A stretch of 64,000 nt of DNA, taken from positions 1,738,938 to 1,802,937 of the forward strand of contig NW_027122681.1 of assembly GCF_030686945.1 (NCBI RefSeq), read 5' to 3'. Below the pieces are notes generated by a model. It made no database searches. It was not told where the DNA came from and saw nothing but the letters and a program-made list of their open reading frames with translations. Shown in pieces: positions 1 through 43,516 of this stretch (the stretch's first letter is position 1; each line of letters opens with the position of its first letter). The position numbers and the translations under genes were made by a program. Source of the DNA: Centruroides vittatus. Taxonomy: Eukaryota.

Positions 1-594
1 AGAATTTCTTTTGATAAATTTAAGCCGATAAATCTTAGAGTGGGGGAAAATTGTACAGATTTCTAAGTGACAACTTCGTGTATGTGACATCTCATTCAAA
101 AATGCCCAATAAATATTAATGCAAACGTTGTGAAATGAATAAAACGACAGACTTGAAAAAATTCGTGAAGCTCGAAAAAAATAAAATAAAAGGAAAGGGA
201 AAGTTATCATTGTTTCTTGACAAATCACTGCATTCCTAATAGCTTCACTTGACCTTTAGGGCTTATACCATCAAATTTGTAACGATAAAGAAAGGATGCC
301 ATTGGTTTATTTTCTTTTTTTTTTATTTATTTTTTATTTTTTATTGTGTTCGTCCCCACTCCATCTCTGTTTTAAAAATAAATAACCTTCGCTATATTTC
401 ATAGAAAATTCATGTAAGTTCAAATATCTTCGAAAGCCCGGGGATAACATTTTTTTTTCGAAAATGGCCTCGTCAAAATAACATAACTTTGTATGGAGTC
501 GATAAGCTTGAGGGGTTGGAATTTTCTTTGTTTATTTATTTATTTCCGTATCGAATTATGTAGCCTTACAGAACAGGTTATCGCCTCCTCTTTA

Positions 595-1110
595 CTTTCT
601 CGGCTGTTATATATGAGGAAAGGTACGGCGATCGGTCAAAAATGACCTCCTTCCACAAGATTTTTACATTTTTGGGCTTAGGACACCTTTAAATGTCGAA
701 ATGCAAAAAAAAATTCGGGTTTTTTTTTTTCGTATGGATGTATGGATGTTAGTGTGTGTGGGAGGCACGATTTCGTTCATCCACTTTGAAGCTTAATAAC
801 TTCTGTGCTTTTTGTCGAAAATTTGTGAAATTTTGCAGGGACGTTTGTTTATTACGGGGATCGATGCTATTAAATTTTGGTGGTTAACGGTCGAGGGGTT
901 GAGGAGATAGTCGTGTGCATCTCCAGTAGGGTCGGACTTAATGACGATTTTACTCGTTATTAACATTAACAATTTTTTTCTATAAAACCCATTTCTACTC
1001 TCGACATTAAGCTTTTTGCCATTTTATAATAGTTAAAAACTTTTTAATAAAACATGATAACAGATGGCGCCACCAAGTGTTGCCGGGAAAGTTAAGCAAC
1101 TCGTATTTTT
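595..1110. mobile_element. Copy 1 of a composite dispersed repeat ('R1'). Its four blocks are also found at 7600-8340, with partial copies at 10240-10440 and 23560-23700.
   Basis: Four blocks recur in the same order at 7600-8340: 600-700 vs 7600-7700, 770-850 vs 7920-7990, 880-960 vs 8100-8180, and 1025-1105 vs 8258-8335. The last block contains the motif cagatggcg. Confidence 0.5.
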
Positions 1111-1189
1111 TTTAATGGAGGAAGTTCAAAAAATTATCGCGACATTTTCACAATGCCGGCCTGCAAGTCTTAATCGTGTTTTTTTTAAA

Positions 1190-1480
1190 ATAATTTATTT
1201 AATTTAAATTACATCCTCTCGATCTCAAATTACTAGTATCTTGCCCCTGTACATCATACTTTTCCCGATAACAACAGGGTCGTGCGTAACTCCATTCTGG
1301 GGAAAACTTTAGAATTGAAATCACGTGACTTCTGTTCTAGAAGTTCGTATATAGAAATAATAGGAGGCCCGGTAAGCTTTCCATATCTGCTCTCGACTTT
1401 CATCTATCAAACAACGTTCTCGAGATTAAAGAAGGACAGACAGACGGACGACAGTGAGAATTTATAGGTCTACAGTCCTA
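1190..1480 (-). mobile_element. SINE-like or 5'-truncated LINE retroposon, copy a. On the minus strand it ends in a poly(A)-like tail.
   Basis: About 75-80% identical to 21290-21590 and 49740-49955. The block ends ...gacagacagacggacgacagtgagaatttataggtctacag. A T-rich run on the plus strand at the low-coordinate end corresponds to poly(A) on the minus strand. Confidence 0.45.
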
Positions 1481-2459
1481 TATATATTATATACACCCTT
1501 CTATACGCGACTGTAACTCTGTAAATTTAAAAAAAAGGGAGACGTGTCGAATACGTGGTCTCTATTTATTCTCTTTTAGGACGAGATAACTAGATGTAGA
1601 CATTTTTCGATTTATGTAAATAGAAGGAATATGACTTTTGAAAATTTTACTTGAGGGTGTAAGTCATTTTCATGGCATGTTTATCTTTACGAGCGGGATC
1701 TGTTTGAATTTTATCTAGAAGAGATCAAACAGAATCGAGCCAGGTCGTAGATAAAGCTGTTGAAAATCGTCCAGGTGTGATATGACTGCATCATGTCGCC
1801 CGTAAAATTTTAAATTTTAATGTGTTTAAAAGGCGTATTATGCGGCCGGCACACAAGGAAAATTGTAATCCCTATCGAATGTTTTGTTTGTACTCCCCGT
1901 AACGTCACTTTATTATTATTACATATCCTTAAGTAACGCGATACTTTATTGCCATTTTAAATTTATTATTATCGATTGGTGTGTGTAGGATCATCATCAT
2001 CATCAATGCAGGCTGATTAATTTTTAAGTCAGTTTGGAGTCCACGCTCGGTAACTTTCGGCATTGGTGAAGGGGGAAAAATTAGAAATTCGTTCAAATTC
2101 CGATTATTCATCATTTGTTATGGAGTAGGAAAGTAAGTATACAATTTAAATGAAACCCGCTAGATAATAACTCATTCTATACGCTTGACTACTAGACAAT
2201 AGAAGCGAATTCTAATAAATGTTTACCAGTTATTATCTGGAGTAATATCTCATCAAACAATCCAGAGAAATTGTTGATGTATATATTATATACAGCTGAA
2301 AAAAAAAATTGTTTATTTAATCTAATAATTTAGATACTAACTTTATATGGTTTACTATAAATTTTCATATTTGAGACCTTAATGTTTCATTATTTTTTTA
2401 TACGCTTTTTCTTCTCCAGAATGCTTAATATTTGTGTATTTTAATTGTGCAAATTAAAA

Positions 2460-3190
2460 AATAAAATCCAACAGAGAAATGTACGTGTTAAAAATTACGT
2501 AATTTAAAATGTACAAGCAAAAATTCTAGATACAGTTTCTTTATCTAGAATTGTTATATGTACAGTACACTTCTAATTATGCAATTTTTCACTCCAGGAT
2601 TTTAATTTGCGTATTTCTTTATCTAGAATTTTGCTTGTACATTTCCAATTGTAGAAAATTTAAATATGTACATTTCTCTTATACAAAATTAAAAATCGTA
2701 AGAGAAATACGCATTTAAATTTTCTACAATTAGAAATGTACAAGTAAAATTCTAGATAAAGAAATATACAAATGTTAAAAATCGTATTTCTTTTTCTTTA
2801 TCTAGAATTTTTCTTGTACATTTCTTTATTGTAAAATATTTAAATGTGTATATTTCTCTTACGATTTTTAATTTTGTATAAGAGAAATGTACATATTTAA
2901 ATTTTCTACAATTAGAAATGTACAAGCAAACTTCTAGATAAAGAAATATGCAAATTAAAATCCTAGAATGAAAAATTGCATAATTAGAAATGTACTGTAC
3001 AAATAAAAATTCCAGATAAAGAAATACGATTTTTAAATTTGTATATCTAGAATTTTTATATGTACTATACAGTACATTTCTAATTATGCAATTTTTCATT
3101 CTAGGATTTTAATTTGCATATTTCTTTATCTAGAATTTTGCTTGTACATTTCCAATTGTAGAATAGTTTAATGTGTGCATTTCTGTTTTA
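2460..3190. repeat. Array of nested palindromic satellite units, about 180 bp each, bounded by tctaga sites.
   Basis: Alternating direct and inverted copies of motifs such as tctagaattttgcttgtacatttccaattgtagaaaatttaaatatgtacatttctcttatac, with hairpin centres near 2690 and 2870. A larger inverted pair lies at 2540-2610 vs 2930-3010, and a direct copy at 3045-3130. Confidence 0.7.
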
Positions 3191-3676
3191 AAAATGTTTA
3201 AATAAAGAAATATACAAATTTAATGTTTTCACGTGTACATTACTCTTTCAAGAATTTTTTTAATTTTTAAATTTCTTGATATTGAATACTTCTACAAATT
3301 CCTCCATCCTGATTTTTTTTTAAACTATAATATACAAGTAGCAGATCCTGATTCAGTTAAGCCGGGAAATTTTTCAATAGCTGTAAATGCCTCTCACCGG
3401 AAAGTATTACTGCAACTCTTAAAACTACTTTAAAATTTGTTGTTTTTTTTCTTTATAAACAAGAAAAATTTATACGATTTTTACTAGAAATAATATTATT
3501 ACTACTAATAAAAAATACATACGTGTGCACCATCTCCAGCACTTTAATATACTTTAATAAAATATAACGAGGATTTAAAACGTTTTCGGACTTTTATAAT
3601 CTTATAAATAATTTTAATTAAATTTATTGATTGTAAATTTCATTAAAAATTAAAATTATCTCGTTTTTTCCGTTAG

Positions 3677-3762
3677 GTTAAAAGGAAAAAAAATAGGAAG
3701 AAACGTATAAAAAAAAATGGATCAGAATCGAGGAAAGATGATGATGAAAAAATTCCATTCAG
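3677..3762 (+). CDS. Candidate first coding exon. ATG at 3717, then MDQNRGKMMMKKFHS, ending in a GTAAAG donor.
   Basis: Acceptor-like ttttttccgttag|G at 3675-3676. A-rich context before the ATG. Strong donor CAG|GTAAAGTG at 3763. No downstream exons were identified. Confidence 0.25.
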
Positions 3763-4619
3763 GTAAAGTGAATAAATTTAAATCTTTTAAACTAATAAAA
3801 GTGACAAGATTAAAACTTTATTTAGCATACAAAATAGAAATTAAACAAAAATCTCATTAAATAAAACCTATTAACGAAACTTACTGAACAATATAACAAT
3901 AGGAGGATAAGATTTTAATTTTGTTTCCTTCTCCTCCTTTATTTTATTTTCTTTATTTTTATAACAAAAATGTTGTTGGTTTTTTTTGTTCATTTGATAA
4001 ATATCAAAAAATGGCGACGGTAAGAAAAAAATATATATATATCGTCGAGTAAATTACATGCAGCTCTCCCTTTCTCTTCTCTCTCTAATTGCACGTTTTA
4101 CTATTATAACAAGCATATATATAGATATGGCGAGTAGTTTTATTACTTTTTTGTTGGAAAACGGAAATAAATAAACATAGACAACCGGATATTTTAAAGA
4201 AAACATCTGGTTATAAAAGTATATCAAGAGATATCTTCCAATGTAGTAGAGCTACAAACATTAACCTGGTTATCTAAACAGTATGACAAATGGACATCAT
4301 TTCACTTCCCTCGTTAAAGTGCAGCATTATCTTCAGTAAATCATCCGAGTTACTTGTGCAAAGCACTGTTTCATTATTTATGATCTCAAAATTTTCGAAT
4401 TTATAGTAATCAGTGGATATCTTCCGGAAGATTGGATGATAAAAATTATTGTTTTCCATGAATGAATCAATCATCCATTCGAAATTGATATTTTAGGAGT
4501 TTGACGTATTTGTTAAAGTTTTATTTATATAATTTTTTTTTTTAAATTTGAAATAAAATATATATATATATATATATTTTATTTCAAAATTTAAAAGTTA
4601 GAATTCTAAGAATATGAAA

Positions 4620-5040
4620 TAAAATGCTTAAAATCGATTTGAATTCAATTAATCGTAAAAATACGCTTAATGTTAATAGTTTATCAAGTAAATACATTGA
4701 TTAATCGATTTAAAATGACTCAGTTTAGTATCGATTAATAAATAAATCGATTTGAAATCGATTAATTGTAATAACAACTTAAATATTAATTTCTATTTTA
4801 TTACGATTAATCGATTTGAAATCGATTTATTTATTAATCGATTACTGATTAATCGATTTAAAATGGATCGATTTATTTATTAATCGATACCAAATTGATG
4901 TTAAATCGATTAATCGATTTCTGTTGTGTTAAATAACAATTAATTTATAACTTATCGAGTAAATTCGATTAATTAATCGATTATCACCAGCTTACATTCG
5001 AATAATAGACGAATCGATTATTGTTGTATTACAACTTAAT
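4620..5040. repeat. Dense array of about 15 palindromic TTAATCGATTAA-type motifs in roughly 420 bp.
   Basis: Repeated taatcgatttgaaatcgattaat and ttaatcgatt units. ATCGAT is otherwise rare in this AT-rich sequence. No unique spacers, no ORF. Confidence 0.7.
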
Positions 5041-5778
5041 GATTTAAAATAATTTTAATGAAATATTTTAAAAATTTAAATTAATAATTTTATTATTATG
5101 AATAAAAATAATAATATAATGAGATTGTTATTGTTTATTAACGTTTACGTAGAAGTAATTTGAACTAATTAAATAATTTTAAATTCACAATTAAAAAAAA
5201 AAAATAGAAAATTAATCCACTTAAATCCAATCTCTTAAGACTATAGAAAAATATTTTTCGCGAAATTTTTCCAGACAAACCTTTTATTTATTTTTATTTC
5301 TTTCCCCCGTTTTCTCGCTTGTACTATTTGAAATATTTGGCGTGGAGATTCTTCAAATAACTCGAATAAAAGTCAGGATTTAGAATACATATATTTATAT
5401 AAATATGCCACTTGTTAAAAATTTTATATAAACTTCTCTCTTCCATTTTACAATGTTCATAAATATTTTTTAAACCATTTTCTTTCGAGTTAAAGTAATA
5501 AAAAAATTTCCTGTATTATGCGGTAAACTAAAACGACGTTTATAAAAAAATTAATTTCAGGTATACGTCATTGTAAAAGATCTTAATACAATCCTGAAAC
5601 AGCCTTGCTGATTTCCTTTTTATTATTATTATTATTATTATTATATATTATATTTTACTTTTTTCGCTACTCCAATCTGATGTAAATAGCCACACGCTGT
5701 TCCACATGTATAACATTACTAATTCAGAATCCATTATTCAAATTGAATCAAGCTTTTTCCTCTTTACTTTCCCCCCCT

Positions 5779-5810
<32 letters not shown>

Positions 5811-6159
5811 TTTTCTATTTTCCTCCCCTTCTCCTGTGCTTTCTGGAAGAGACTTTTCATAAATTTCCCTTTTCACTTTACTGATATGCATATAAAGATA
5901 TCAATCTCTGTATAATCCTATCATAATAATTTTTAAACTTTTAGTCAAGTTTAAATTTAATTCTCTAAAAATCAATGGAGTGTTTTTTTTTTTTTGTGTA
6001 GGTGTGTATTCTTGTAAAGTCTTCTATGTAAACTTAATGTTCTAATGGTTTTTGTAATAGATTTAATGGAAATTAATCAAGATAATTATGTTTTTAAACA
6101 GATTAAAGCGTGTAAAAATATTTCTTGCTGCTTTTCAAAAAAATATAATCGAAAACTTG

Positions 6160-7090
6160 CTTAGAAATACAGTAAAACCTGCGTAAACCGGTATGGCTCG
6201 GTACCAAATATGTCTTTTTTCCTCTGACAGGTTTCCATTTTTTGCAGGTTTTTGTTTTAACATTGGAAATAGATTGGCTCCGAAGAATCTTTCCGTTTTA
6301 AGCAGGTTTTACTGTTTAAATCAAGACTAAACCGACTCTTAAAAGATTTAAATCGTAAAAACATTACAAATATTTAAAAATATAAATTTGTTATAAGTAA
6401 AACCTGTCTAAAACGGAAACCTGTCGAACAGGGAAAAATATTCGGTACCGTGCTGTTCCGGTTTATACAGGTTTTACTATATTTTTAAGGTTTCTAAGCA
6501 GGTTTTTTAATTATTTTCAAGTGTTTAATAGCCTTAAATAATTAACTTTTAAATTATTTGAATTATTACTATAATATAGTAGTGTAATAAAGTATAAAAA
6601 TATTATGCTATATTATTTTAATTACCATTAAATTACTTTAATAGTAATTAAAATAATTGATAATACTAATAAAAATCCTATAAAAGTGCATAAAATACCG
6701 TAATGAGTTACTATAAAATCTATAAAAAATGTAATAAAGGCCACTAAAATGTTTAAAACCTTTCATATTGTAAGCTTATGAGCCCAAATAATTAATTTTA
6801 AAATTAATTGTTTGAACTGGAAAAATATTTTAGATTAACTCATTACAGAATATTTTACGTAAAAATTTAATGCCTTTTTCATAGGAGTTTTATCGTTATG
6901 TATACCAGTAAAACCTGTGTAAACCGGAATCGCACGGTACGGATTTTTTCAGGTTTGGCAGGTTTCCGTTTCAAACAGGTTTTTAACACAAGAAAATTCG
7001 TTTCTTTCTTCGAATTACAGTATTTCGGTTTAGGCAGGTTTCCGTTTTATACGAGTTCCGTTTCAGACAGGTTTAATAATAAAACGTGGA
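6160..7090. mobile_element. Cluster of fragments of one MITE family. Terminal motif is cagtaaaacctg...ccggtttatacaggttttactg. Other copies at 8015-8097 and 22650-22790.
   Basis: 6160-6250, 6400-6490 and 6895-7085 each carry cagtaaaacctg(t/c)NNaaaccgg / ccggtttaNacaggttttact ends. The family is TA-flanked at 8015-8097. Confidence 0.55.
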
Positions 7091-7599
7091 TTTTTGGTGT
7101 ATATATATATATTTTTTCGTCTCGTAAAAAATGAAGTTTTAATAAAGTAAACTGGTGGTAAATTGCAGTTAACAACTTTTCAAAATGGCTTGTTGTAAAC
7201 ACGATTAAAAAAGGATAAATTTTCCAGAAACTTTTAGTAGCAGAAGCGAAAGAAATTAGGTTTTAACTTTATCTAGAAAGTTTCTTTGCTCTGCCCTTCA
7301 CAAGAGACAATGGAATTTACTTAGTTTTGCTTCAGATAATAGAAAGCGATTGATGTTTCATTAGGACAGATAAAGGTGGCTGATACGTTGATTAATGTGC
7401 CCGATCAGAACAAAGTACCAATGGCAATAAGATCTTACATACCCCATAGCTAATACTCGGGGCATTATCTAACAGAAGATATAATTTGAATTAGATGTTT
7501 ATCGATGGAAAGCAATTTATATCTCGTTTGCTGTATTTCAGCTTGAAATTTCAAGCTTTTCCAGTTGTAAATAACCAATTTCTTTTATTATTTTTTTTG

Positions 7600-8340
7600 T
7601 AATTTTTTGGCTGTGGGGGGAAAGTATGGCCACTGGTCAAAAATGACCTCCATTTTTGTACTGAAACTTCCAGAAATGTAAAAAAGTTGGTGGGCTTTTT
7701 GTATTAATGCGTGAAGGAGGCCAGTAGGCCCAGACAAATTTGAATTAGGGGGCCGTGTACTTTGCTGACTTCAGACATTTTCCTTCGGGGAATTTTTGGG
7801 ACTTTTTTCGACATTTTTGGGAGGAATATTTTCTTATAAAAGATTGGTTTGGAGCCCCCTGTTAGTGGGGGAGGGTTCAGGCAATTGCCCTTTTTGCCCT
7901 GATAACGCGCCACTGGAGGAGGCACTGTTTTGTTCGCCCACTTTAAAGCTTAATAACTCCTGTGTCTTCTGTCGGAAATTTCTGAAATTTTGTGTATTAG
8001 GGGTATTGATAGTATTACAGTAAAACCTGTCCAAAACGGAAACCTGCCAAAATATTCGGTATCGTGCGATTCCGGTTTACACGGGTTTTACTGTATATTT
8101 TGGTGGTTAAAGGTCAAGAGGGGGTTCGCGTGTCGTATCTCCTGTGTGATCGGACGTTGTGATTTTGTTATTAGCATTTACATTTTTTTTTTCTTTTTAA
8201 ATAAAACTCGTCTCTAACCTAAAGTTAAGCTTTCTTTTGTGTCATTCTATAATAGTTAATAAAAATAAAATCTGACAACAGATGGCGTCACAAGCAATAT
8301 TTAACTTTATCGCCGGGAAAGTTACGCAACTCTGCTAGAT
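7600..8340. mobile_element. Copy 2 of composite repeat R1, carrying a nested MITE insertion at 8015-8097.
   Basis: Same block order as 595-1110. The nested MITE is an 83-bp ta|cagtaaaacctg...ggttttactg|ta insert between blocks B and C. Confidence 0.5.
8015..8097. mobile_element. Stowaway/Tc1-like MITE with a TA target-site duplication.
   Basis: cagtaaaacctgtccaaaacggaaacctg...ccggtttacacgggttttactg flanked by TA on both sides. It interrupts the R1 repeat relative to copy 1. Confidence 0.6.
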
Positions 8341-11300
8341 CTTTTCCTCTCTTCAGCTAAGCGCATAAAAGTCAGCAAGTAAGACGATAAAGATTTTAGC
8401 GAAAGCGAAAATTAAATTTAGTTATAATAAAGTAAAAATTCTTATCGTCGCAGTTTATCTTTTTAATAAATTGCAAGTTAAACAAACAGGGAAAAGGTTG
8501 TTTGCCGTAGCGAAAACAAATGAAAACGGAGGGAGAAAAAATGGAGTCCATCAATAGATTTAATCGTAAGAAATCGTTAATTTCCGTTAAGAATTAAAAT
8601 AAACTTTATTTATTTATTTATTTTTTACTGAATGGATTAAGATGGATGAGTGTTTGTTTTATATTTATGGAAGTGTCGCGGGGGGGAGTCTAATTTAGGC
8701 CAGGTGTCGACGTCTCGTCATTGTAAGTGGCTGTTCAAACGTATTGTGACACAGACCGATTTGTCAAACCACTTCGATAAACGGGTGTTTTGTCATAAAG
8801 TGATGGATAATGTCACAACTCCCAGAAACCAATTTACTTCTTTTGTACAACTCAATCGATGAGAGTGTAAACAATAAGACTAGTCTCACTTTTATGATGT
8901 ATTCAAGAGATTTCGGGGGATTTAAAAGGGAAAAAAAGACGGGGGGGGAGCATATTTTATGTATGATAAAAGCCATATAAAAATTTCGTCTACCTTAAAA
9001 TTCGAAGTTAATAAATAGGGTTTCGCACCGAAAGATTATTAGTTTATGCTTCACTTGTCTTATGACATGGACTCTTTAATCGGCTTAATTATTATCTCCG
9101 TTCTGTTAAAGGATTTACTTCTCTTGAAAGAGATTCCATCCATGGATGCTCTTAACCTTTAACACAGAGGTGAGGCAAGTCGTTAATAAGAAAAATCCAA
9201 TAAATTTGCCTGATTAGAAGTGAGAAATTTGACTTTCTCCACTCCGTTAGATGCGGACGAGGCATCGGAAACTGCAGAAAATCCTTGTTTTTTCCCACCC
9301 CCTTCTCCTTTTAATGTTTAGAAAGTAAACAAAGTAGAGAGATAAACCAGTTATTAAAAGACGTGAATCACTTCTCAGTTTATAAAAGGCGTATACCCGG
9401 CTGTTAGTTTATATAAACAACCTTATCCGCTTCGCAATTACACGGCCCTTCTCCTTATATAAGCATAGAAATGAGTTGTTTATGACCCCCCTCAGTGTAA
9501 ACAGTGAATAAGAATAGAAAGACTTTATCCGCTCCTGTGGTTATATCTACTGACGAACACGAACACGAATACTATAGGCATTCTGCTGTACATAATCTGT
9601 ACGTACTTATAAACAGTGTAATAAAATTTAACTAGTGGGAATTAATTATCGAGTGAGTTATTACAACTTATTCCTTCCCGTTAGATGGATTGTTGTTAAT
9701 GTCCGCTGTGATAATTTACATAAATCACGAATGAATGTCGAGTGCACCAGCTTAAAAATAAAGCTAATTTATGGGGTTAGAAATGGGCTCTTATTAACAT
9801 TCTTTTACCCTTCCCTCCCCCACGTGTAATGTATTCATAATTACTTGGATAATTATGATGATTACGTGGATCCAAATTGGCTCTTGGTTTAGATATTCAA
9901 ATTAGTCGAGAAATTATCTCCATTTTTATGTATTTAGCAAGACGGATTAATTGTTTATTCCGTTATTAAATTACTCACACTTATAAATGGCAAAGGAATT
10001 AAGAAAAATGTAAATAAATTGCAAGTAAATTAATTATGATAATTACGAGACCTTGCTTATGAAGATTTTAATTAATTAAACTTGTGTATACTCTTATCGG
10101 ATAATGCGCAGATTTATTATTATAATTTAGAAAAGTTAGAATCATTTTTTTCCTTCTAATTTTTAAGCATTTAATTAAGGATTTTTGACGCTTAAATTTA
10201 TTTTACTTTCTCACTCTGTTTTGTAACAAAGGGTTTATTTGGGAGCGCAATTTTGTTCGCCCACTTTGAAGCCTAATAACGCCCGTGCCTTTTGTCGAAA
10301 ACCTCTGAAATTTTGCAGGGAGGTTTGCGTGTTAGGGGAAAGCGTTTGTAGAAATTTTCAGGAAAATCGGACCATTGGTTCGAGAGATATGGTCCCCCGC
10401 CTTCTTAATATCTCCCGAACCAATCTGAAGAATGAAAGGGAATAGTAGCAATTATTAGGGATGAAAAGAAATAAAAAATGCCGAGAAAATTCAGAACAAA
10501 TCCTATTTTTATTGTGTACAAATTGAGTGATATTTGTATATTTGAAGCTTAAATTTTCTCATAGATGCATAAATTTAGAATAAGAAGACGTAGACGAAAA
10601 CAAAAACATAACCTTTTGCTCTGTTTAAAACTTGAACGACAAACATACTCGAGTATAAATAATTCGAGAGATCGAAAGCATTTCTAGAGAAAAATACACC
10701 TAATTTTCGACAATTGCACGATGTTAATGGTTGCATAGTATGTACCTTAATTATATAATCCATAGAGACAAAGTTTAAATCCATTTTAGGAATCCCCCTT
10801 TTACATTTCGCTAATTATCGCTTGCCTGTCATTCGAGATAAACATGTGTAGTTACCGACATTGGGGGCACGTAACAGGAATAGTAATTAGCATTCCGCAT
10901 TATCTACCAATTTATGCAAATTTTTCGATAGAGCAAGAAAAAACGGTTCCCCCCCGCTCTGTTCTTTCAGTTTACGCTGTCGTTTCTTTATAGCTGCATA
11001 AAATTCGATAAGATTCGATAAGGGAGGTAATAATAACAAAATTTAGCCCATTTAATCTCTTTATTTTGCATAAAAACATCCGGATAAATCGCAAAATTAC
11101 CTTTATTTTAGTGATTTACGTACGTAAAAATTCTGCGCGCTGCGAGAATGGCGATGGATTAACTCGAAAATTCGAAGAAACTAGCTTACAACGGACTGAA
11201 ATTTTAAAATTTTAAAAATGTAAATAACGGAAAATGACGTATAAAATCTCGTAAAAACGTGTAAATTTCCGGCGAGATCGAGTTTACTCGCGTTAATGAC

Positions 11301-12169
11301 ATTTTTTTCCCCTCTTCTTCTTCTTCCTTTCTTCTATGTTGAGAGGAACAAATTGAATAACTCAATTTACCAGATAACATAAATAATGTAAATCAATAAT
11401 AATTCTCGAGATGGAAACACATTATTTCATCTCACTTTTTTAATATTTCGTAAGAGAATTCGACCGTAAAATATATATATTTTCGGTTTTATAACATCAA
11501 CAATTTATTTATTTATGTTTGCTACTGTCTATAATATATATATATACAGTATATAAAATGAATTACGGATAGAAAGGGAATACTAAATAAATAAAAATAA
11601 AGAAGATTCGGTATTTTCTGACGACAAAATAAATTTATTTTCACTTTCATTTTGGATTTGGAAATATTTCCTACGTGGTAACATTAATAGAAAAATAGTT
11701 TGACGCTTCTTTAATGGCCGACAGTAGCAATTTAAAAAAACCATTTAGGGATTATTGTGTAGCTCTTCTCTTTAGTTTATATATATATATATTTTCTAAT
11801 TTGGAAAAAAAGGAAAGTTAATTATTGAATCGATAGGCCCTCTTCTAAATTTAACGCTTCTATTTTTTACTATTAATTTGCTTAATTCGAAATTACTTTC
11901 CTGTGTTTTACACTGTGTTTTACACTGTGTTTTCCCATTTACTTTACTATATTTACATTGTTATAATAGGGAAAAAAATAATTAGAATGACCTGTTTTGT
12001 TGCTTAATTTTTTTTTTGTCTTGTGGGCCTTTTAAAAGGCGATCGACGGGGTCCTACATATAAGGGACAGGTCGCGTATGAGCGTTTCTGGGGGTTTTGA
12101 TCGCTCGGATTCGAAAAGGATCCCCAGAGCGGTGAAGTAATTACCCTACTGTACTTTTTTAAACAACTC

Positions 12170-12540
12170 TTTCCGCCCCGAGAGCACTAAGAGGGCCTTT
12201 TTTTTCCCAGGCCCACAATAGTGGTGAGGGACGGGACCAGACATATCTTACGTGGACCACTCCCGAAAAGTTCCTGGGGTTTTTTTCGACTCGTTCGGAT
12301 TCGATTCCCATCAGTGACCGAGTGGATAAAACCGCCGGACACTGGTGGTTGATCGTGGGTTCGCTCCTCGCCACACGAACTTTCCCGGGTTTTCTCCGTA
12401 TTGTAACACCTAAATAGGGCCAGTTTCCCATAGGAAGTTTTCCCGGGAGGCATCCCCCCTCGGCAGATCTCCGACTTGTCACTTTGCCGTATACAAATAC
12501 ACTAGACTCTCGCTAATCCGGCCATTCCTGGCACGGAGGA
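12170..12540 (+). mobile_element. tRNA-derived SINE. The head resembles a tRNA D-arm and T-arm, and the body contains aaatagggccagtttccc.
   Basis: Head 12296-12375 reads gaccgagtggataaaaccgccgg...gtgggttcgctcctcgcc. The body is shared with 34310-34520 (ttttctcc..gtaa..cctaaatagggccagtttccc..ggcatcccccc..ggcagatc). The head is homologous to the minus-strand copy at 25400-25600. A partial inverted copy follows at 12720-12840. Confidence 0.5.
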
Positions 12541-14920
12541 AATCCGGATTACTGAGCGTATAGGACTAAAGGCAATGACAACGACAAGGCGCCCTTCCGT
12601 ACTGATTCTTTTTGGAGCTGTATTTTGTTGATACAGTAATTGCAAGTGTAACATTAATAAAGAATTAAAAGTATACTACATATATTAAAAAAAAAAATAA
12701 TAATAATAATAACGAACATATTCCGATGGGTATGCCGGATTAGCAAAAGTCTAGTGTAATTCAATCCGAGTTCAATTCTGGGTCTCCCAGAGCAGTAGGC
12801 TCGACACGGACATCCGGCCCCTCTGTAATTATCCTACCAGAAAAGCATGGATTAAAATTAAGATAAACAAACGTACAGACGTTAAGTAAATTATTATAAA
12901 GTTTCTCTGGCCATTCTGACTTTCATTAATCATACGAACATCAACAAATAACCCGTCTGCGCCGCGACGTTAAACAAACGTTAACTAATACTCGATACGG
13001 GTGTATACTTCTACGCCATTATCTTTAAAACCCTTCTTACTTAATATACCACTATCAAACTAAGTGCAATGTGCTGTAGACTTAAAATTTATAGAGCTAA
13101 GAGGAGGACGGATAAAAAAAAAAGATCATCCAGCGATCTTAACTAATTAAACTATAAAAATAATTCTTAATCAGTTTTAAAGGGCTATTAACTACCGAAT
13201 TATCTAGAGAAATACACCGAAAAGTTTCGGTTTACTACTTCGTACCCCTTCTCTAATTTATTATTATTTTAATTGTTTGGTTTTAAGTAAATTTATGGAG
13301 TTTCGGTTTACAAATTATTCGGATGGGGATAAATCACTCCCTGTTTATTAATGCTCGTTACGGGTGGTCTTAAGTGTTACTCTTCTTCATCACCGCGTAT
13401 TGGAGCCGCGAAAGAAATGTAGGAAGGTAGAAAATTGAAGCTGTTTTTATGTTGCCATTGTAGCTCCAACAGTAAAAACTTGGCGATCAGTTCTACTTAA
13501 ATTATTAATCACAAAAATGGCGAGATTGTTTTAGAGAGAATTAGGGTATCTCTCTCTCTCTCTCTCTCTCCTCCCTTTCCCCCCTCTCCCACACTCTCTA
13601 TCTCTGGAATCGATAAACTTTCCCATTGGAAAAATGGCAAAGTTGTTAAATATTTATTACTAACGAGTTATACCTTATCTGGAAGATCTCATTGGTTACT
13701 AAAAAAAGAACTCTAATCATTTTCTAATCATCTAGAAGGCGTTAAGAGTAGAAAAATAATTTTCGCAATGGAGAATTACGCCACACTCTAAATATAAATC
13801 TAGTTTAATTCGGGGGGGAGGCACCACCACGCGAAAATTCTCCTCCTCCCCCCCTTCCCAAACTAGCTTGACTCTTATTGGCACTTTTCCCAATATCTTT
13901 ACCGAATGGCGACCCCAGACACTGATTGCAACTGTCAATGGATTCTGCGCTATGTCATTATTGGAAGGAAACGTCGTTTGGGAGGACAGCTTCCATCTGA
14001 AAGAAGAGGTCGTTTGCAAGAGGGAGAGGAGGAGGAGGAGAAGAAGAAGGAAAAGGGGAAAAAAAGTGGAAGCATTCTTTGATATATGATTGAATGGCAG
14101 AAAGGTAAATTCTTTTGCCTGCCTGCCACACATTTGTGCAACAGGAGAAACGTAAATGCTCATATAAAATTTCAATTCGAAAATTTCCACCCTATACCTG
14201 CTGTATCTGCCGCTTTCTTTCTTATCTGTATCAAATTCTAGACGTATTTTTGCATAAGAAACAAGGAGGAACCCCCCTTTTACCACTCATCCATATTTCT
14301 GATATTCTAGGATACATATTTTTCTGTAAGCCGTTTCTGTAAAATACTCTTAGATTTTTATTTAGTCAACGTAACAGATGGGATGAAAGGAAATCATAAA
14401 TTCTTATAAAATTCGAATTTCGCTTTTTAAAAATAAATAAATATCGAATAAATTTACCGTAACATAGTAGACATTTTTTTTTTTAAATTTTAAAAATACG
14501 TACAGTACAGTACAATTTGACGTCTTTCGGTCGCAGAAAAAAAAATCTATGCTAAACTCCTTTTAGTATTCTTCTTGGTTGTAAACATACATCATTGGGA
14601 TATTTCTAGAAGTTCTTATTCTTTTATAGTTTCTTTGACCTTTGCACTTAGTTTCAATTTGATTTCTGCTCAACCATCGGTGCAGAATTTTGTCTTTAGC
14701 ACGCTTGGTTAATTCCGTCCCGGAAGACACAACTGCAGATGGCAAGTTGATTCACAGGTTTTCATTTATATCGACGTTAAAAATCTTCCAGAAACACAAG
14801 AAATTTCTCGAAATTTTAGCTAAATAAGGCTCTAAAAATTTAATACAATATATCACGTTCTTTGAATATATCCTTAGAGACTTATTTAGCTGAAATTTTA
14901 ATTTCTCGTAGTGTTGTGTA

Positions 14921-22062: not shown

Positions 22063-22170
22063 ACGTAACAGAGCAAATCCCGTGTTTGAGAATAGGGGAC
22101 AAAGCAAATCCCGTGTTTGAGAATAAACACAGGATTTGCTCCGTCCCCTATTCTCAAACACAGGATTTTA
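22063..22170. repeat. Nested palindrome: a 35-bp outer inverted repeat enclosing an inner hairpin.
   Basis: Outer arm gtaacagagcaaatcccgtgtttgagaataggggac matches the reverse complement of gtcccctattctcaaacacaggattttactgttac. The inner hairpin is gcaaatcccgtgttt gagaat aaacacaggatttgc. Confidence 0.6.
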
Positions 22171-26247: not shown

Positions 26248-29034
26248 TTTTTACGTATTTACAGCGAGTGTACCTGGACGAAAACAAACCGGAAAGTGTG
26301 TATAATCTAGGATCGATCCTTTAAAACACGAAGGAAAAACTACAGACAGAAGCAGTCTTGTTAATTACGGGTTAATTTCTAATGTTTTATACGAAGAAGA
26401 ATCTGAAAATGCATTTTTGGAACCTTCAAAGCAGTTTTATCGAGTGGAGAATGGCAAATTTTTATCGGAAAACCACGCTTTTATCTTATGTGGAAAAGGT
26501 GGGATTGTGATTTCGGGAAGAATTAGAAAGGGCGAGAGAATGTCTAACCAAAACAAGCGAAAAATGCATTTAGATATTTTAGACGATGAATTAATTAGAA
26601 AAAATATCAAAGCATTACTAGAAATGAAATTCGGGTGTAGTTATACACTATCGTAATATAAAATGGTAATATAACCATAACTATTGTTCTTATATTTTAT
26701 TTTGAGTTATTTTCATGGGTACATTACTTTTGTACATGTACCCATGAAAATAACTCGAAATAAATTTTTAAATAATTTATTTATCCATGTTAATTTTCCA
26801 CGGGTCCGGCCACGACTTTTCAAGCTAATTACTATGCGTTAACATATTCATTCTCCTTTCTCCATTGAAAAATCCTAATATTTTCGACCAAACGTCAGAG
26901 ATCTGGCCCAGTGAGGAGTTGAGAGATTTCCAGTTATCTCCTAATGTAAAAAGTATAAACAACGTTCTTATAAAAAGTGAAGAGCAGCAAAGAATTAGAA
27001 AGCATGGGAGGTCGTTGTGGGAAGGAAAGACGAAAAGAGAGACTGGAAGAGGCAGAGGCACGAGAGCCTCCATGCTGAGAAAAAAAAAGGAAAAGATCGA
27101 AGTCAAAGAAAGAGAACAACAAAAGGGGAGCTCGAAGAATCAGAAAAAAAAGACGTCTTAAGAAATATCGACGTGCCCTAGCTCAGAATTGGTAGACGTC
27201 GATGGTTTTGTATCCAAATGGCCCTTTTCGGAGCCACGATTTAATGGTTAAGAGCAGCTTTATTGGTATGTTGAAAGCGATGCATTTACTCCAGTCTCAA
27301 AATAAATTTATTGTAAGCATCAAAATGTTTTTGCAAATCTATTTCGAATGGCCAGATTTTAAAAATTTGAACGATAAACATATACCTAAAGAAAAATATA
27401 TTCTAAGATTTATTTGTTCAAAAGATAATTAAAAAATAATAAGTTTTATCACGTGAAATGGCAAATTGTGCGTTCGAGTCAGAAGGTGTAGACAGGTGTA
27501 GATTCGTAAGTAAGTGTGACAGACACCGAGACAGACTCGATAATTACAAAAAAGAAAGGCATTTTTAGTAAGTATGTGGGAGTTGAGAGTGAAGTTGAAG
27601 ATGCAACCAAGATCTGGCATTGAGAAATCTCAGGGAGAAGCTCTTCCGTCCTTAAAATTTAAGGTTGTTATTATTTTTGCCCATTCTGATTGGTCGCCAT
27701 TCCTCGTTTTCGCTTTCTAAGTGTAACGATATCTCAATTTAGATCGCGAGATGAGTCAAAATCTACATTTAATTCGATCCCAGCTGAAGATATTTCCTCT
27801 TGAGACTTACATTGTCTAGATTTCCTTTGTCAAGTTATATTCTTTCTTTAAAAGGAAAAATAATCAAACACAAACAGGTAAGCCCATATATCTAATGTTT
27901 CTAACCGATTTTTGCTACTCTTAACTATTAAATATTGGCTCTAAAAAGAGCAGTTTGGTTAGGACCAGCATAATCTAACAATTCTAAAGCAAGATATGCT
28001 GAAGATGAGATTTTCTTCGGTTGTTCTAAATGTCACACAAATGGAGTCACATAACTAATCCTTATTTGCATAGATCTCTTAACAAAGATGTTGAAAATAA
28101 TAATGTCTTTATGGTAATTAGATTAATTGATGGAGGGCAGAAAGATGGGTAACATGTCTGTCCGAATTTAATGCAATATCTGAATAAGATTCAAAATATT
28201 GGAAAGTGTTTTCTATTATATTTATGGGAAAATTTTCACTGTTTCTGTGAACTATTTCAAATATTGTTCGAGAACGTCAAAATTTCGTTATTCTGCTTTA
28301 TTCTTACTGAAGAACTAACCTTCATTCTAATTGGATGAGGTCTGGAATGTCTTTAATCCAATGAAATTTGTTTTTTGCTCTTGATGATGATTCTAAGAAG
28401 TTGAAAGTATGGGGATTATGTCTAAGACTTGCTTTTTATTAATTCCCCAATAAAGTAGTTCTTAAAGACTTGAGTATGTAAGGTGTTGCTGATTCTTATA
28501 TGATATAGCATTTTGCAAATGATATTAACAGTATACTTTGTATTACTTATATTTATTTATTATTGACAGTTCAAAAATAGGTAAATCACAATAAATGTTG
28601 AAAACACATCTCTGGTAAACATAATGTGAAAAATTCAATACAAACTAATATATATCTTCAATAAAATGCATATGACATATGTTGATCCATAGACAGGACT
28701 CTCTTGTTTTCTTTTATAAATATTAGAAAACTAATTCAGTTTAAATTGTATAAAAATATACGTAAAATATTTTTGTTCTTGTGTATGTTCAGAAATTAAT
28801 TACCAAACAATGTGTTTTAATCTGACATTTACGATTTCTCGTTTAACGTATGGGACTAGTATCATTACTAAGTGTTACAAAATAGAAGGATTGCTTATTG
28901 TTTGTAATTTCAAATCACAGTATATTATATTTTTAATTATTTATATGCTAACATTAAATTCAATGACATAGTAACAACTTTAAATAGCTCTTGCATCTGA
29001 TTTTTGATTATTCAATATGTTAAGGATTGTGGCA

Positions 29035-30056: not shown

Positions 30057-30512
30057 TCAGATTTGATTCTGGATTCCTCAGTATGATGCCTGTAATTACC
30101 TCAGCCATATGGCCGTCGCCAATAAAACAGTGACAATTATATAAAAGGGAAAATTGTCAGTCTGGTGATTGGCAGATGCAGACAACCAACTGCTGTATAG
30201 TGTGAAGCAACTTTTCACATGCAATATGTCACAGCAGTGGTGTGCCATGACATTTGATGATAGGGAAGCTGTGTTTCTGTAAGAAGACGACTTCCAGGGG
30301 CAATCAGTGATGGTCTAGAGTCCATTTATATTCGTTTGTTCAATAAGCCAGTAAGAACTGTAGACTTCTCTAAATGTATTTTTAATAGATTATCTGATAT
30401 ATTGAACTTGTTTATTTATTAAGTACATCAAATATTTTAATGGATTTTTTTAAAACTCCTGTCAACTATACAAAACATAACCCAACCGATAGGAGTTTCC
30501 TGGTAAGTTATA

Positions 30513-31067
30513 CGTGGTACGATCCAAAAGTTCGGGGACTGCAGTAATCTATGACAACAAAAGCATGTATTTGAAGTTACGGCGTATGAAATGGATTCTA
30601 CCAAACCACCTCTACGTGTTCAGGTTAATTTCACCCATGTCATGTGATTAAACCGCGAGCGCTGCTGTTTTTTTCCGGAGATAGTTACCTTTGTTCTGCG
30701 ACATAATAAAAGTAGAGTTTCAAGAACAACCTCCAACATTAAATTTTGTCAGCGTTTAGGTAAAACACCTACGGAGATTTTAAAATTGCTAAGAAAGGTG
30801 TACGGTGATTCTACGGTGAAAGGTCACGATGAAGTCGAAATGTTGGAGGTTGTTCTTGAAACTCCACTTTTATTACGTTGCAGAACAAAGGTAACTATCT
30901 CCGGAAAAAAAACAGCAGCGCTCGCGGTTTAATCACATGACATGGGTGAAATTAACCTGAACACGTAGAGGTGGTTTGGTAGAATCCATTTCATATGCTG
31001 TAACTTCAAATACATGCTTTTGTTGTCATAGATTACTGCAGTCCCCGAACTTTTGGATCGTACCACG
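30513..31067. mobile_element. Mariner-derived foldback MITE, copy 1. About 555 bp, fully palindromic, with a TA target-site duplication.
   Basis: ta|cgtggtacgatccaaaagttcgggg...ccccgaacttttggatcgtaccacg|ta. The arms 30513-30790 and 30800-31067 are reverse complements. The arm encodes FCQRLGKTPTEILKLLRKVYGDSTV, a mariner N-terminal HTH-like segment. Confidence 0.75.
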
Positions 31068-31856
31068 TAAATCAAGGGCAAGGGCGGCCAAATATCTAGC
31101 ACGCAGGTGACTAACAGCCCAGAATTGGTCCTGGATAGAATCATTGGAAGCGTTATACGATATTTTGGTGTGTGGCTTCCACTAGCTAAACCACGTCAGG
31201 TTGGTGCTCTGTAAAGTGCATGCGCAAATGCCTATAATCTGGTTGTTTTACTTCATTCGCCATGGAAGCTGTCCTGTATTCAACAATACAGCAAACACTT
31301 CCATTGGGAATATCCCTATATGAATTTATATTTGAAAATACAATAGCAATCTTATCGTTTTTTTCACATGTAGTATAGAAATTTGTAATAAAATATATAT
31401 TGCGGTTATAATAAAATGTAAATTTTAATTAATTCAAAGTATATTCAAATATGAAAATAATTGCGCAATATGTATTTATAGTTTAGAAAATACAAGGAAA
31501 GTGGCACTTCCAAGAACGGCACGCCACTGTGTCACAGTGAAGTCAGACCAGTTTGCATGACATGAATAGTGCTATTAATGCCATATGTTTTCACATTCAT
31601 CACACTTGTCACTTTAAAACCAAATGAAAATTTTTTAAACAGGCAAATTTATTGAAACCTGTTAATTCCCTTTGTACACGATTTGTTTTGATCTAAACAT
31701 TTTTCAAGATTGTGTAAAAAAAAATCTGTGTTTTATAATGACAAATAATCTGTATTAAATAAAAACATTAACATAACAAAACATACTTTAGAATTTTATC
31801 AGTTATAAAATAAAAAAAAATAAAAAAATAAGAGACTTATTTCAAACTTACAATAC

Positions 31857-42644: not shown

Positions 42645-43516
42645 CGTGGTACGATCCAAAAGTTCAGGGAATGCAGTAATCTATGACAACAAAAGCATGT
42701 ATTTGAGGTTACAGCATATAAAATGGATTCTACCAAACCTTATCTACGTGTTCAGGATAATTTCGCCCATGTCACGTGATTAAACCGCGAGCGCTGCCAT
42801 TTTTTTCCGGGGATAGTTACCTTTGTTTGGCGACGTAATAAAAGTGGAGTTTCAAGAACAACCCCCAACATTAAATTTTGTCAGCGTTTAGGTAAAACAC
42901 CTACGGAGACTTTAAAATTGCTAAGAAAAGTGTACGGTGATTCTACCATGGCGAAGTCGAAAATGTACGAATAGCATTGGCGTTTTAAAGAGGGCCGAGA
43001 ATCCATCGCAGACAATCAACGCTCTGGCCGACCTTCGATTTAACAGGATACACAGGTTGAGTTTATCCTGCAAACACATTGAGCATTGAGAGACAACTCA
43101 ACATTTTCCTCATTCTGTTAAATCGAAGGTCGGCCAGAGCGTTGATTGTCTGCGATGGATTCTCGGCCCTCTTTAAAACGCCAATGCTATTCGTACATTT
43201 TCGACTTCGCCATGGTAGAATCACCGTACACTTTTCTTAGCAATTTTAAAGTCTCCGTAGGTGTTTTACCTAAACGCTGACAAAATTTAATGTTGGGGGT
43301 TGTTCTTGAAACTCCACTTTTATTACGTCGCCAAACAAAGGTAACTATCCCCGGAAAAAAATGGCAGCGCTCGCGGTTTAATCACGTGACATGGGCGAAA
43401 TTATCCTGAACACGTAGATAAGGTTTGGTAGAATCCATTTTATATGCTGTAACCTCAAATACATGCTTTTGTTGTCATAGATTACTGCATTCCCCGAACT
43501 TTTGGATCGTACCACG
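42645..43516. mobile_element. Mariner-derived foldback element, copy 2. 872 bp, perfectly palindromic about position 43075, with a TA target-site duplication.
   Basis: ta|cgtggtacgatccaaaagttcagggaatgcag...ctgcattccccgaacttttggatcgtaccacg|ta. Each arm retains the mariner 5' end and translates to CQRLGKTPTETLKLLRKVYGDSTMAKSKMYE*HWRFKEGRESIADNQRSGRPSI. This is HTH_48-like (compare [25 protein letters not shown]), with an in-frame stop. Confidence 0.8.

What the first reader, a model, noticed from the sequence alone, without database searches (positions are those of the whole stretch)
4620..5040. Cluster of about 15 palindromic TTAATCGATTAA sites
ATCGAT-cored palindromes recur every 20-40 bp, often as inverted pairs separated by tga or aaa. 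They sit in a region with no coding potential.
- The motif is close to, but not identical with, the insect DRE (TATCGATA) bound by DREF/BEAF-type factors.
- It could be a satellite, a binding-site array for a dimeric factor (insulator-like), or the repetitive core of an unknown transposon.
- The periodic ClaI sites make it easy to test.
Basis: seen in the sequence. Interest (0 to 1): 0.5.

Follow-up and report, generated by a model that had tools for sequence, protein, structure and literature searches.

The report
Decaying AT-rich palindrome studded with ClaI sites
The cluster of ATCGAT sites is real, but it is best read as one roughly 360-bp stretch of non-coding DNA that was repeatedly copied onto itself, forwards and backwards, so it looks like an ordinary hairpin-forming repeat and not a regulatory or insulator site array.

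Summary
There are 15 ATCGAT sites at 4633-5018, against 16 in the other 63.6 kb, and no shuffle gave more than 3 in 420 bp. Twelve of the 15 are AATCGATT. The stated 12-mer TTAATCGATTAA never occurs exactly, and the median spacing is 16 bp, not 20-40.

The sites are not independent. The locus is one degenerate palindrome (about 4630-4987) around a 23-nt centre, with a later 46-bp tandem duplication in the right arm. It is built from a 42-48-bp unit carrying three ATCGAT sites. Arm-to-arm identity peaks at 97% near the centre and fades to background outward. As single-stranded DNA it folds with z = -9.4.

Cores are not significantly better conserved than spacers (p = 0.06). None of the sites is the DRE octamer TATCGATA, and there are only three CGATA motifs. 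No credible TIR or target-site duplication brackets the array, and the window holds no second copy. No Pfam domain lies within 10 kb. The host looks like an arachnid, not an insect, on weak evidence.

The most likely reading is a locally generated foldback repeat under no detectable selection. A relic of a foldback-type MITE, or a CUT/ONECUT-type site array, cannot be excluded without the whole genome.

The parts
4633..5018 (.). The 15 exact ATCGAT (ClaI) palindromes. 12 of them are AATCGATT.
   Evidence: Positions are, and significance is (maximum of 3 per 420 bp in 200 shuffles). Five further one-mismatch relics lie at 4696 and 4894 (ATTGAT), 4863, 4954 and 4964.
4630..4774 (.). Left arm of the degenerate palindrome
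   Evidence: The reverse complement of the left half was aligned globally to the right half. The score was 140, against 52 +/- 7 for shuffles. Identity in 30-column blocks from the centre outward was 70, 97, 77, 53, 60 and 53%, then background.
4775..4797 (.). Central 23-nt non-palindromic spacer, the loop of the hairpin
   Evidence: This is the gap between inverted-repeat arms 4730-4774 and 4798-4842 (I2), and it is the loop in the ssDNA fold.
4798..4987 (.). Right arm of the palindrome, including a later internal duplication
   Evidence: alignment. Inverted-repeat pairs I1, I2, I5 and I11.
4843..4888 (+). 46-bp tandem duplication inside the right arm. It adds three ATCGAT sites.
   Evidence: TRF reports period 46, 2.0 copies and 87% matches over 4800-4888. 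Removing 4843-4888 raises the arm-to-arm alignment score from 124 to 140.
4727..4846 (.). Youngest core: a near-perfect hairpin of about 120 nt, with 45-nt arms that are 96% complementary
   Evidence: I2. MFE of the whole array is -77 kcal/mol against a shuffle mean of -41, z = -9.4. One of the two arm differences is a CG-to-TG change (AATTGT against AATCGT).
5004..5031 (+). Outlying degenerate partial copy carrying the last ATCGAT (5013)
   Evidence: Direct repeat D8: 4904-4931 against 5004-5031, 79% identity.

Best explanation
The locus is a single, locally generated, AT-rich foldback repeat, and not a set of independently maintained binding sites.

A short seed rich in the self-complementary octamer AATCGATT grew into a unit of about 42-48 bp. 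Its consensus is roughly TTATTACGATTAATCGATTTGAAATCGATTTATTTATTAATCGATTACT. That unit was then copied next to itself in inverted orientation, giving a palindrome of about 4630-4987 around a 23-nt centre. Later a 46-bp tandem duplication arose in the right arm.

Shown: the two-fold symmetry, the tandem copy, the identity gradient, the strong hairpin potential, and the lack of extra conservation of the ATCGAT cores.

Inferred: the mechanism. Because AATCGATT reads the same on both strands, it offers microhomology in either orientation. This favours hairpin-mediated slippage and template switching during replication. Intrastrand pairing and gene conversion would keep the part near the loop homogeneous (97%), while the outer parts drift and lose sites, partly by CpG-to-TpG transitions. 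On this view the 15 ClaI sites are passengers of duplication, and the locus has no sequence-specific function. Its main biological consequence would be a propensity to form hairpins or cruciforms, and so local instability.
For: (1) Removing one 46-bp tandem copy turns the locus into a single palindrome. The alignment score is 140 against 52 +/- 7 for shuffles. Identity is 97% near the centre and falls to background by about 4630 and 4985 (supported).
(2) All sites fall within 7 aligned unit copies, 4 on the + strand and 3 on the - strand.
(3) ssDNA folding gives z = -9.4.
(4) ATCGAT cores are not significantly better conserved than spacers: 24/157 against 35/146 mismatches, Fisher p = 0.06, on an alignment that is itself anchored on the cores. 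The outer units have lost sites.
(5) The window holds no other copy of the array and only one other AATCGATT, against 2.6 expected. The word is therefore not a commonly used signal in this 64 kb.
(6) Close-spaced inverted duplications recur in this window at 2536-3203, 30511-31069, 42641-43520 and 22075-22168. The process that would make such a structure is evidently active in this genome, or in this assembly.
(7) No credible TIR or target-site duplication was found. No Pfam domain lies within 10 kb.
Against: The ratio of intact to degenerate sites is high (15 exact against 5 one-mismatch). CpG observed/expected is 4.8 in the array against 0.91 in the window. The core-versus-spacer trend leans toward core conservation (odds ratio 0.57, p = 0.06). 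These facts fit recent amplification but also fit weak constraint. An identity gradient that is highest near the centre is not a unique signature of gene conversion. Genome-wide copy number could not be measured, so a mobile-element origin of the seed remains open. The replication-slippage and template-switch mechanism is inferred, not observed.
Confidence: 0.55

Rival explanations
1. It is a relic of a small non-autonomous DNA transposon of the foldback or MITE type. In that case the ATCGAT palindromes were internal or subterminal transposase-binding repeats.
For: The overall foldback architecture fits. Unrelated eukaryote-like metagenome contigs that carry the same doublet AATCGATTTCAAATCGATT belong to dispersed repeats. 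One JAAUXW01 family is a bounded element of about 130 bp with TIRs of about 22 bp (CCCGAGTTGAGGTGGAATTGAT ... ATCAATTCCACCTCAACCCGGG) and an internal ATCGAT cluster. L009 and L017 share 2.6 kb at 96% identity, and that shared stretch ends about 20 bp after an ATCGAT cluster. The window is littered with transposon debris and other dispersed repeats.
Against: The window holds no second copy. The only TIR/TSD candidates are low-complexity A/T runs. Arm identity is highest at the centre and lowest at the outer ends, the opposite of what is typical for MITEs, whose termini are the conserved part. There is no sequence homology to the metagenome elements beyond the seed used to find them.
Confidence: 0.25
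2. It is a homotypic cluster of binding sites for a dimeric sequence-specific factor that recognises ATCGAT. Candidates are a CUT/ONECUT-class homeodomain protein, or a BED-finger protein of the DREF or transposase type. The cluster would act as an enhancer, boundary or tethering platform.
For: ATCGAT is the functional core of CUT/ONECUT sites in C. elegans (bioRxiv 10.1101/2021.12.10.472091). 13 of the window's 17 TAATCGAT/ATCGATTA words (ATCGAT joined to a TAAT/ATTA word) lie in the array. The high intact-to-decayed site ratio and the retained CpGs also fit. A 72-codon open frame starting with Met lies about 150 bp from the array on the minus strand.
Against: The number of sites is explained by duplication of a few units. 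Cores are not significantly more conserved than spacers. Spacings of 8, 11, 15-16, 22 and 26 bp are not helically phased. The motif is not enriched anywhere else in 64 kb. No recognisable gene lies within 10 kb, and the adjacent open frame has no homologue. For DREF and BEAF specifically, there are 0 TATCGATA and only 3 CGATA (against the definitions in PMC2605929).
Confidence: 0.1
3. It is a hairpin-RNA or miRNA-like locus. Transcription through the 120-nt near-perfect hairpin would yield small RNAs.
For: There is a long, near-perfect hairpin. Sub-threshold matches to miRNA-precursor models cover exactly the hairpin (mir-2513, 35 bits, E = 5e-5).
Against: All Rfam matches are far below gathering scores (35 against 89 bits), and the same hairpin matches four unrelated miRNA families. 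That is the behaviour of any long hairpin. The stem is about 48 bp of almost pure A/T, unlike animal pre-miRNAs. There is no expression evidence.
Confidence: 0.04
4. It is an assembly artefact: a chimeric palindrome created from long reads.
For: The window contains one perfectly palindromic 880-bp structure (42641-43520, arms 100% complementary) and one that is 99% complementary (30511-31069). Both could be artefacts.
Against: The arms of the ATCGAT array are 53-97% identical, with indels, an internal tandem duplication and graded decay. That is evolutionary divergence, not a read folded back on itself.
Confidence: 0.02

Closest known systems
Palindromic AT-rich repeats (PATRRs) and local inverted duplications that form hairpins or cruciforms
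   Same: Single-locus, a few hundred bp, about 79% A+T, near two-fold symmetry around a short asymmetric centre, and very strong predicted hairpin formation.
   Different: It is built from an internally repetitive unit that contains a CpG palindrome. It is more degenerate than the classic human PATRRs. No instability or rearrangement data exist for it. The comparison with PATRRs rests on my own knowledge and was not tested.
Foldback-type transposons and MITEs, for example Drosophila FB elements whose long inverted arms are arrays of short subrepeats with periodic TCGA (TaqI) sites (from my own knowledge), and the JAAUXW01 MITE family seen here
   Same: Inverted arms composed of short subrepeats that carry a TCGA-cored restriction palindrome. 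The MITE family found carries the very same ATCGATTTCAAATCGAT doublet.
   Different: There are no conserved termini, no target-site duplication and no second copy in 64 kb. Conservation is highest at the centre, not at the ends.
DRE/DREF promoter element (TATCGATA) and BEAF-32 dual-core insulators (clusters of CGATA)
   Same: They share the ATCGAT core, and the motifs are clustered in AT-rich DNA.
   Different: None of the 15 sites has the T...A flanks of the DRE. Only 3 CGATA/TATCG motifs are present and there is no second cluster, whereas dual cores need two clusters of about 3 CGATA separated by about 200 bp (PMC2605929). The host is probably an arachnid.
CUT/ONECUT (CUX, HNF6, CEH-48) binding sites
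   Same: The ATCGAT core, often extended to TAATCGAT/ATCGATTA, matches the core reported for these factors. That the extended form is the composite CUT-plus-homeodomain motif is from my own knowledge of JASPAR-type motifs.
   Different: Known functional sites are single or few and lie near target genes. Here there are 15 sites produced by duplication, with no target gene and no conservation evidence.
Minisatellite or satellite DNA
   Same: Short AT-rich repeat units at a single locus.
   Different: There are at most 2 head-to-tail copies. The units are in mixed orientation, the total is only about 360-400 bp, and it is not repeated elsewhere in the window.

Membership tests
DRE (DREF-binding element) | Octamer TATCGATA | tested here: not met
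   There are 0 occurrences in the array and 2 elsewhere in the window. The flanks are A at -1 in 13 of 15 sites and T at +1 in 14 of 15, giving AATCGATT.
DRE (DREF-binding element) | Location within a few hundred bp of a transcription start site | not testable with these tools
   No transcript data are available. The only nearby open frame (4277-4492, minus strand) has no homologue and no Pfam domain.
BEAF-32 dual-core insulator | Two clusters of at least 3 (or at least 2) CGATA motifs within 100-200 bp each, separated by an AT-rich spacer of about 200 bp (PMC2605929) | tested here: not met
   Only 3 CGATA/TATCG motifs in total (4729, 4885, 4953), and no second cluster.
Satellite or minisatellite DNA | Many head-to-tail copies of one unit | tested here: not met
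   TRF's best result is 2.0 copies of a 46-bp unit and 4.2 copies of a weak 15-bp period. The units occur in both orientations.
MITE or foldback DNA transposon | Defined terminal inverted repeats flanked by a target-site duplication | tested here: not met
   A systematic scan found 5 candidates, all A/T low-complexity runs. Matched control positions gave 0.29 on average and up to 7.
MITE or foldback DNA transposon | Multiple dispersed copies in the genome | tested here: inconclusive
   There is no second copy in the 64-kb window.
Local AT-rich palindrome (inverted duplication) | Two-fold sequence symmetry around a short centre | tested here: met
   Arm-to-arm alignment score of 140 against 52 +/- 7 for shuffles. 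The central arms are 96-97% identical.
Local AT-rich palindrome (inverted duplication) | Hairpin or cruciform potential well above that of composition-matched sequence | tested here: met
   MFE is -77 against -41 +/- 3.8 kcal/mol, z = -9.4, and 0 of 100 shuffles folded as well.
Homotypic transcription-factor site cluster (CUT/ONECUT-type) | Presence of the recognition core ATCGAT | tested here: met
   15 exact cores, and 13 TAATCGAT/ATCGATTA words. The core is as.
Homotypic transcription-factor site cluster (CUT/ONECUT-type) | Sites conserved more strongly than the intervening sequence | tested here: inconclusive
   Among the paralogous units within the locus, mismatches were 15% in cores against 24% in spacers, p = 0.06, on a core-anchored alignment. 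Orthologous loci were unavailable.
Virus 'homologous region' (hr)-type palindrome array | Repeated imperfect palindromes embedded among viral genes | tested here: not met
   No Pfam domain in 1-14900. Viral-contig scans gave 0 hits for the doublet and only isolated, unclustered hits for the tandem octamer.
miRNA or hairpin-RNA precursor | Match to a curated RNA family at its gathering score | tested here: not met
   The best match is 35.4 bits against a gathering score of 89. Nothing matched at gathering thresholds in the whole window.

The most novel reading that the evidence does not exclude
The array is a maintained platform of about 15 palindromic ATCGAT sites for a dimeric CUT/ONECUT-like or BED-finger factor in a chelicerate genome. 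It would act as a boundary, tethering element or enhancer, and its repeated re-duplication and CpG retention would reflect selection for site number. This would be an arachnid counterpart of the insect DRE/BEAF-type ATCGAT-core elements, built on a different flank specificity (AATCGATT).
Probability: 0.07. Interest if true: 0.5.

Novelty: new member of a known kind. Interest (0 to 1): 0.2.

Why it matters
If the main reading is right, the finding matters little. It is one more hairpin-forming AT-rich inverted duplication in a repeat-rich intergenic region. It is useful mainly as a caution that a striking cluster of 'binding-site-like' palindromes can be produced entirely by local duplication of a unit that happens to contain a self-complementary word. 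Such loci can be fragile or hard to assemble, which is relevant to assembly quality here, given the perfect palindromes elsewhere in the window. If instead the sites were shown to be occupied or conserved, it would point to an ATCGAT-reading architectural factor outside insects.

Tried and rejected
- Exact 12-mer TTAATCGATTAA: absent.
- Literature searches for AATCGATT and TAATCGATTA: only primers and incidental hits.
- Identifying the species and fetching orthologous loci: three protein searches found nothing (my 1e-10 cut-off was too strict). Exact ORF look-ups also found nothing. The exhaustive HMMER search of the Cullin-like exon gave only 14 weak hits, the best two from the scorpion Centruroides vittatus at 48-49% identity.
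It was replaced by concatenated open frames, which gave no hit.
- Metagenome scan with the 19-mer doublet: 60 loci, none homologous to the array beyond the seed. These were used only as analogies.
- The L017/L009 element: no ORFs, so no transposon superfamily could be named.
- TIR/TSD search: only low-complexity candidates.
- Viral scans: no clusters.
- Rfam: only sub-threshold generic-hairpin matches.
- DRE/BEAF reading rejected on motif counts.
- Satellite reading rejected on TRF results and unit orientation.
- Assembly-artefact reading rejected because the arms have diverged.

Full report
**Observation.**
The region was read directly and the motif was counted. The hexamer ATCGAT occurs 31 times in the 64-kb window, and 15 of these lie between 4633 and 5018. 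The octamer AATCGATT occurs 13 times, 12 of them here. Composition predicts about 2.6 in the whole window. In 200 dinucleotide-preserving shuffles of the window no 420-bp interval held more than 3 sites. Shuffling only the local 901 bp gave a mean of 1.7 and a maximum of 6, against 15 observed. Among all 64 palindromic hexamers, ATCGAT has the largest cluster in the window.

The flanks are A at -1 (13 of 15 sites) and T at +1 (14 of 15), with mixed A/T beyond. The words that really recur are GATTAATCGATT and AATCGATTT[G/A]AAAT, each with 4 copies in the window, all in the array. Spacings between sites are 8-71 bp, with a median of 16.

The array is 21-22% G+C. Every reading frame has 8-20 stops. 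So the cluster is real and non-random, but the stated consensus and spacing are only approximate.

**Anatomy.**
Repeat finding showed nested direct and inverted repeats. These include a pair of 45-nt arms that are 96% complementary (4730-4774 and 4798-4842) and a 46-bp tandem duplication (4800-4888, 2 copies, 87% matches). Aligning seven unit copies, four on the + strand and three on the - strand, gives a consensus of about 42-48 bp with three full ATCGAT sites and a half-site.

I then aligned the reverse complement of the left half to the right half. Removing the 46-bp tandem copy (4843-4888) raised the score from 124 to 140, against 52 +/- 7 for shuffles. Identity in 30-column blocks from the centre outward is 70, 97, 77, 53, 60 and 53%, and then falls to background. 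The whole array is therefore one degenerate palindrome, about 4630-4987, around a 23-nt centre (4775-4797). An additional partial copy lies at 5004-5031 (D8). As single-stranded DNA the array folds at -77 kcal/mol against -41 +/- 3.8 for shuffles (z = -9.4). The fold is dominated by a hairpin of about 120 nt (4727-4846) and a second hairpin at about 4847-4916.

**Are the sites themselves under constraint?**
Across the aligned units, positions inside ATCGAT cores differ from the consensus in 24 of 157 cells, and spacer positions in 35 of 146 (Fisher p = 0.06). The alignment is anchored on the cores, which biases the comparison toward core conservation. The outer units have lost sites. At least three of the degenerate positions are CG-to-TG changes: ATTGAT at 4696 and 4894, and AATTGT against AATCGT between the central arms.

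The array still holds 19 CpGs, 14 of them inside ATCGAT, for an observed/expected ratio of 4.8 against 0.91 in the window. That fits young copies as well as it fits constraint. I conclude that duplication alone explains the number of sites, and that there is no positive evidence of selection on them.

**Context.**
The window is an AT-rich eukaryotic sequence (31% G+C, and 24% in the 2-6 kb stretch around the array) with fragmented exons, no tRNAs and no Rfam families. No open frame of at least 40 aa within 1-14900 has a Pfam domain. A 72-codon open frame (4277-4492, minus strand) lies next to the array, but it has no homologue, no domain and no exact record.

The only recognisable domain found is a Cullin fragment at 26306-26653. 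Its best matches among 1.84 billion representatives are two 'cullin-3-like' proteins of the scorpion Centruroides vittatus, at 48-49% identity. This suggests an arachnid host, on weak evidence. The species itself is apparently absent from the searchable collections. Genome-wide copy number and orthologous loci could therefore not be examined.

**Transposon test.**
The array has no second copy in the window. A systematic search for inverted termini with target-site duplications bracketing the array returned only A/T low-complexity candidates.

By analogy, however, ATCGAT clusters do occur inside mobile elements elsewhere. A metagenome scan with the doublet AATCGATTTGAAATCGATT returned 60 loci, none homologous to the array beyond the seed. 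Several of them carry their own clusters of 5-8 ATCGAT. Ten contigs of one assembly (JAAUXW01) fall into two short interspersed families. In one family, L021 shows both ends of an element of about 130 bp with 22-bp terminal inverted repeats and the ATCGAT doublet inside. L009 and L017 share 2.6 kb at 96% identity, ending about 20 bp after an ATCGAT cluster. That element has no ORFs, so no superfamily can be named.

These cases show what a transposon version looks like: sharp ends and many copies. The window array shows neither, and its conservation is highest at the centre, not at the ends.

**Binding-array test.**
DREF requires TATCGATA. BEAF binds paired clusters of CGATA ('dual cores') (PMC2605929). 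The array has 0 TATCGATA and 3 CGATA/TATCG, so both readings fail their defining features. ATCGAT is the core of CUT/ONECUT sites (bioRxiv 10.1101/2021.12.10.472091), and 13 of the window's 17 TAATCGAT/ATCGATTA words are in the array. In vitro such a factor would probably bind here. But there is no enrichment of the word elsewhere in the window, no helical phasing, no nearby recognisable gene and no conservation signal.

**Other rivals.**
Permissive Rfam matches to four unrelated miRNA-precursor families sit on the hairpins, but at 19-35 bits against gathering scores of 60-89. This is generic hairpin resemblance. Viral scans gave no clustered hits, so a virus hr-type origin has no support. An assembly artefact is unlikely because the arms have diverged and carry indels.

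**Why local duplication is the preferred mechanism.**
Close-spaced inverted duplications are a recurrent feature of this window. There is a foldback array of 180-bp units at 2536-3203 (arms 174 nt, 95%), a 560-bp palindrome at 30511-31069 (99%), a perfect 880-bp palindrome at 42641-43520, and a small one at 22075-22168. A self-complementary octamer gives microhomology in both orientations. This should favour hairpin-mediated slippage and template switching, and intrastrand pairing would homogenise the part next to the loop. This mechanistic step is inference.

**Verdict.**
The array is a real, statistically striking cluster, and the best explanation is ordinary: a single-locus, AT-rich, hairpin-forming foldback repeat (confidence about 0.55). 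A decayed foldback MITE (about 0.25) and a true ATCGAT-factor site array (about 0.1) are the live alternatives. It is a new instance of a known kind of sequence, and interest is low (0.2). One BLAST search of the array against the source genome, plus a look at the orthologous locus in relatives, would settle the matter.

Noticed in passing
window 2450-3250: A second, unrelated foldback array lies 1.4 kb from the finding. It consists of direct and inverted copies of a unit of about 180 bp carrying TGTACA (11 sites) and TCTAGA (8 sites). The inverted arms 2536-2709 and 2851-3024 are 95% complementary, and TRF reports period 182 with 1.9 copies. It is single-copy in the window.
   Followed up: partly
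window 42641-43520: A perfect palindrome: 409-nt arms that are 100% complementary, with a 62-nt loop. It is either a very recent inverted duplication or a long-read assembly artefact.
   Followed up: no
window 30511-31069: A palindrome of about 560 bp (arms of 164 nt at 99%, plus 73 nt at 96%). It overlaps an open frame that looks by eye like a mariner-type HTH (30648-30929, '...FCQRLGKTPTEILKLLRKVYGDSTV...'). Pfam was negative.
   Followed up: no
window 4539-4596: A 58-bp palindrome centred on (AT)10 lies immediately upstream of the array, with 29-nt arms that are 93% complementary and no gap between them (I6). The perfect 12-bp palindrome TTAGAATTCTAA follows at 4600-4611.
   Followed up: no
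window 4277-4492 (minus strand): A 72-codon open frame in 24% G+C DNA, with a Met at its 7th codon, lies about 150 bp from the array. It has no homologue, no Pfam domain and no exact record. It could be a chance ORF, an orphan first exon or a transposon remnant.
   Followed up: partly
window 6160-7000 and 8019-8100: A dispersed repeat of about 85 bp (core AGTAAAACCTGTGTAAACCGG...) is present in both orientations within a patch, with a further copy 1 kb away at 72-82% identity. It is probably a SINE or MITE family.
   Followed up: partly
window about 650-800, 7770-8020 and 10230-10440: Similar translated strings ('...CSPTLKLNN.C.FCRKF.KFC...') recur in three places. This suggests another interspersed repeat family (seen by eye).
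   Followed up: no
window 35425-36404 (minus-strand ORF 35727-36404): A long open frame with a tandem repeat of 36/117/234-bp periods encodes GPTPSSVPQFGG-like FG repeats. It has no Pfam domain and no homologue below E = 0.001. It may be a lineage-specific FG-repeat protein exon.
   Followed up: partly
window 26306-26653 (+): A divergent Cullin-like exon (Pfam PF00888, E = 2e-6, below the gathering score). Its best relatives are two short 'cullin-3-like' proteins of the scorpion Centruroides vittatus at 48-49% identity. It may be a member or pseudogene of a lineage-specific Cullin-3 expansion. It is the only clue to the host taxon.
   Followed up: partly
window 41941-41995: Four TGGCCA palindromes lie within 55 bp, in a small locally palindromic patch (ggccagtgac...atggccaaggaatggccat).
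   Followed up: no
L005, L021, L045, L051 (JAAUXW01 metagenome contigs): A MITE family of about 130 bp in an unidentified eukaryote, with 22-bp terminal inverted repeats (CCCGGGTTGAGGTGGAATTGAT) and an internal ATCGATTTCAAATCGAT doublet plus further ATCGAT sites. A second family (L008, L022, L023, L029, L048) combines ATCGAT and CCATGG repeats.
   Followed up: partly
L009 2438-2550 and L017 3210-3300: Two contigs share 2.6 kb of ORF-less, 30% G+C sequence at 96% identity. The shared stretch ends about 20 bp after a cluster of 5-8 ATCGAT sites and abuts unrelated 50% G+C DNA. It looks like the end of a degenerate mobile element in a GC-richer genome, perhaps fungal.
   Followed up: partly
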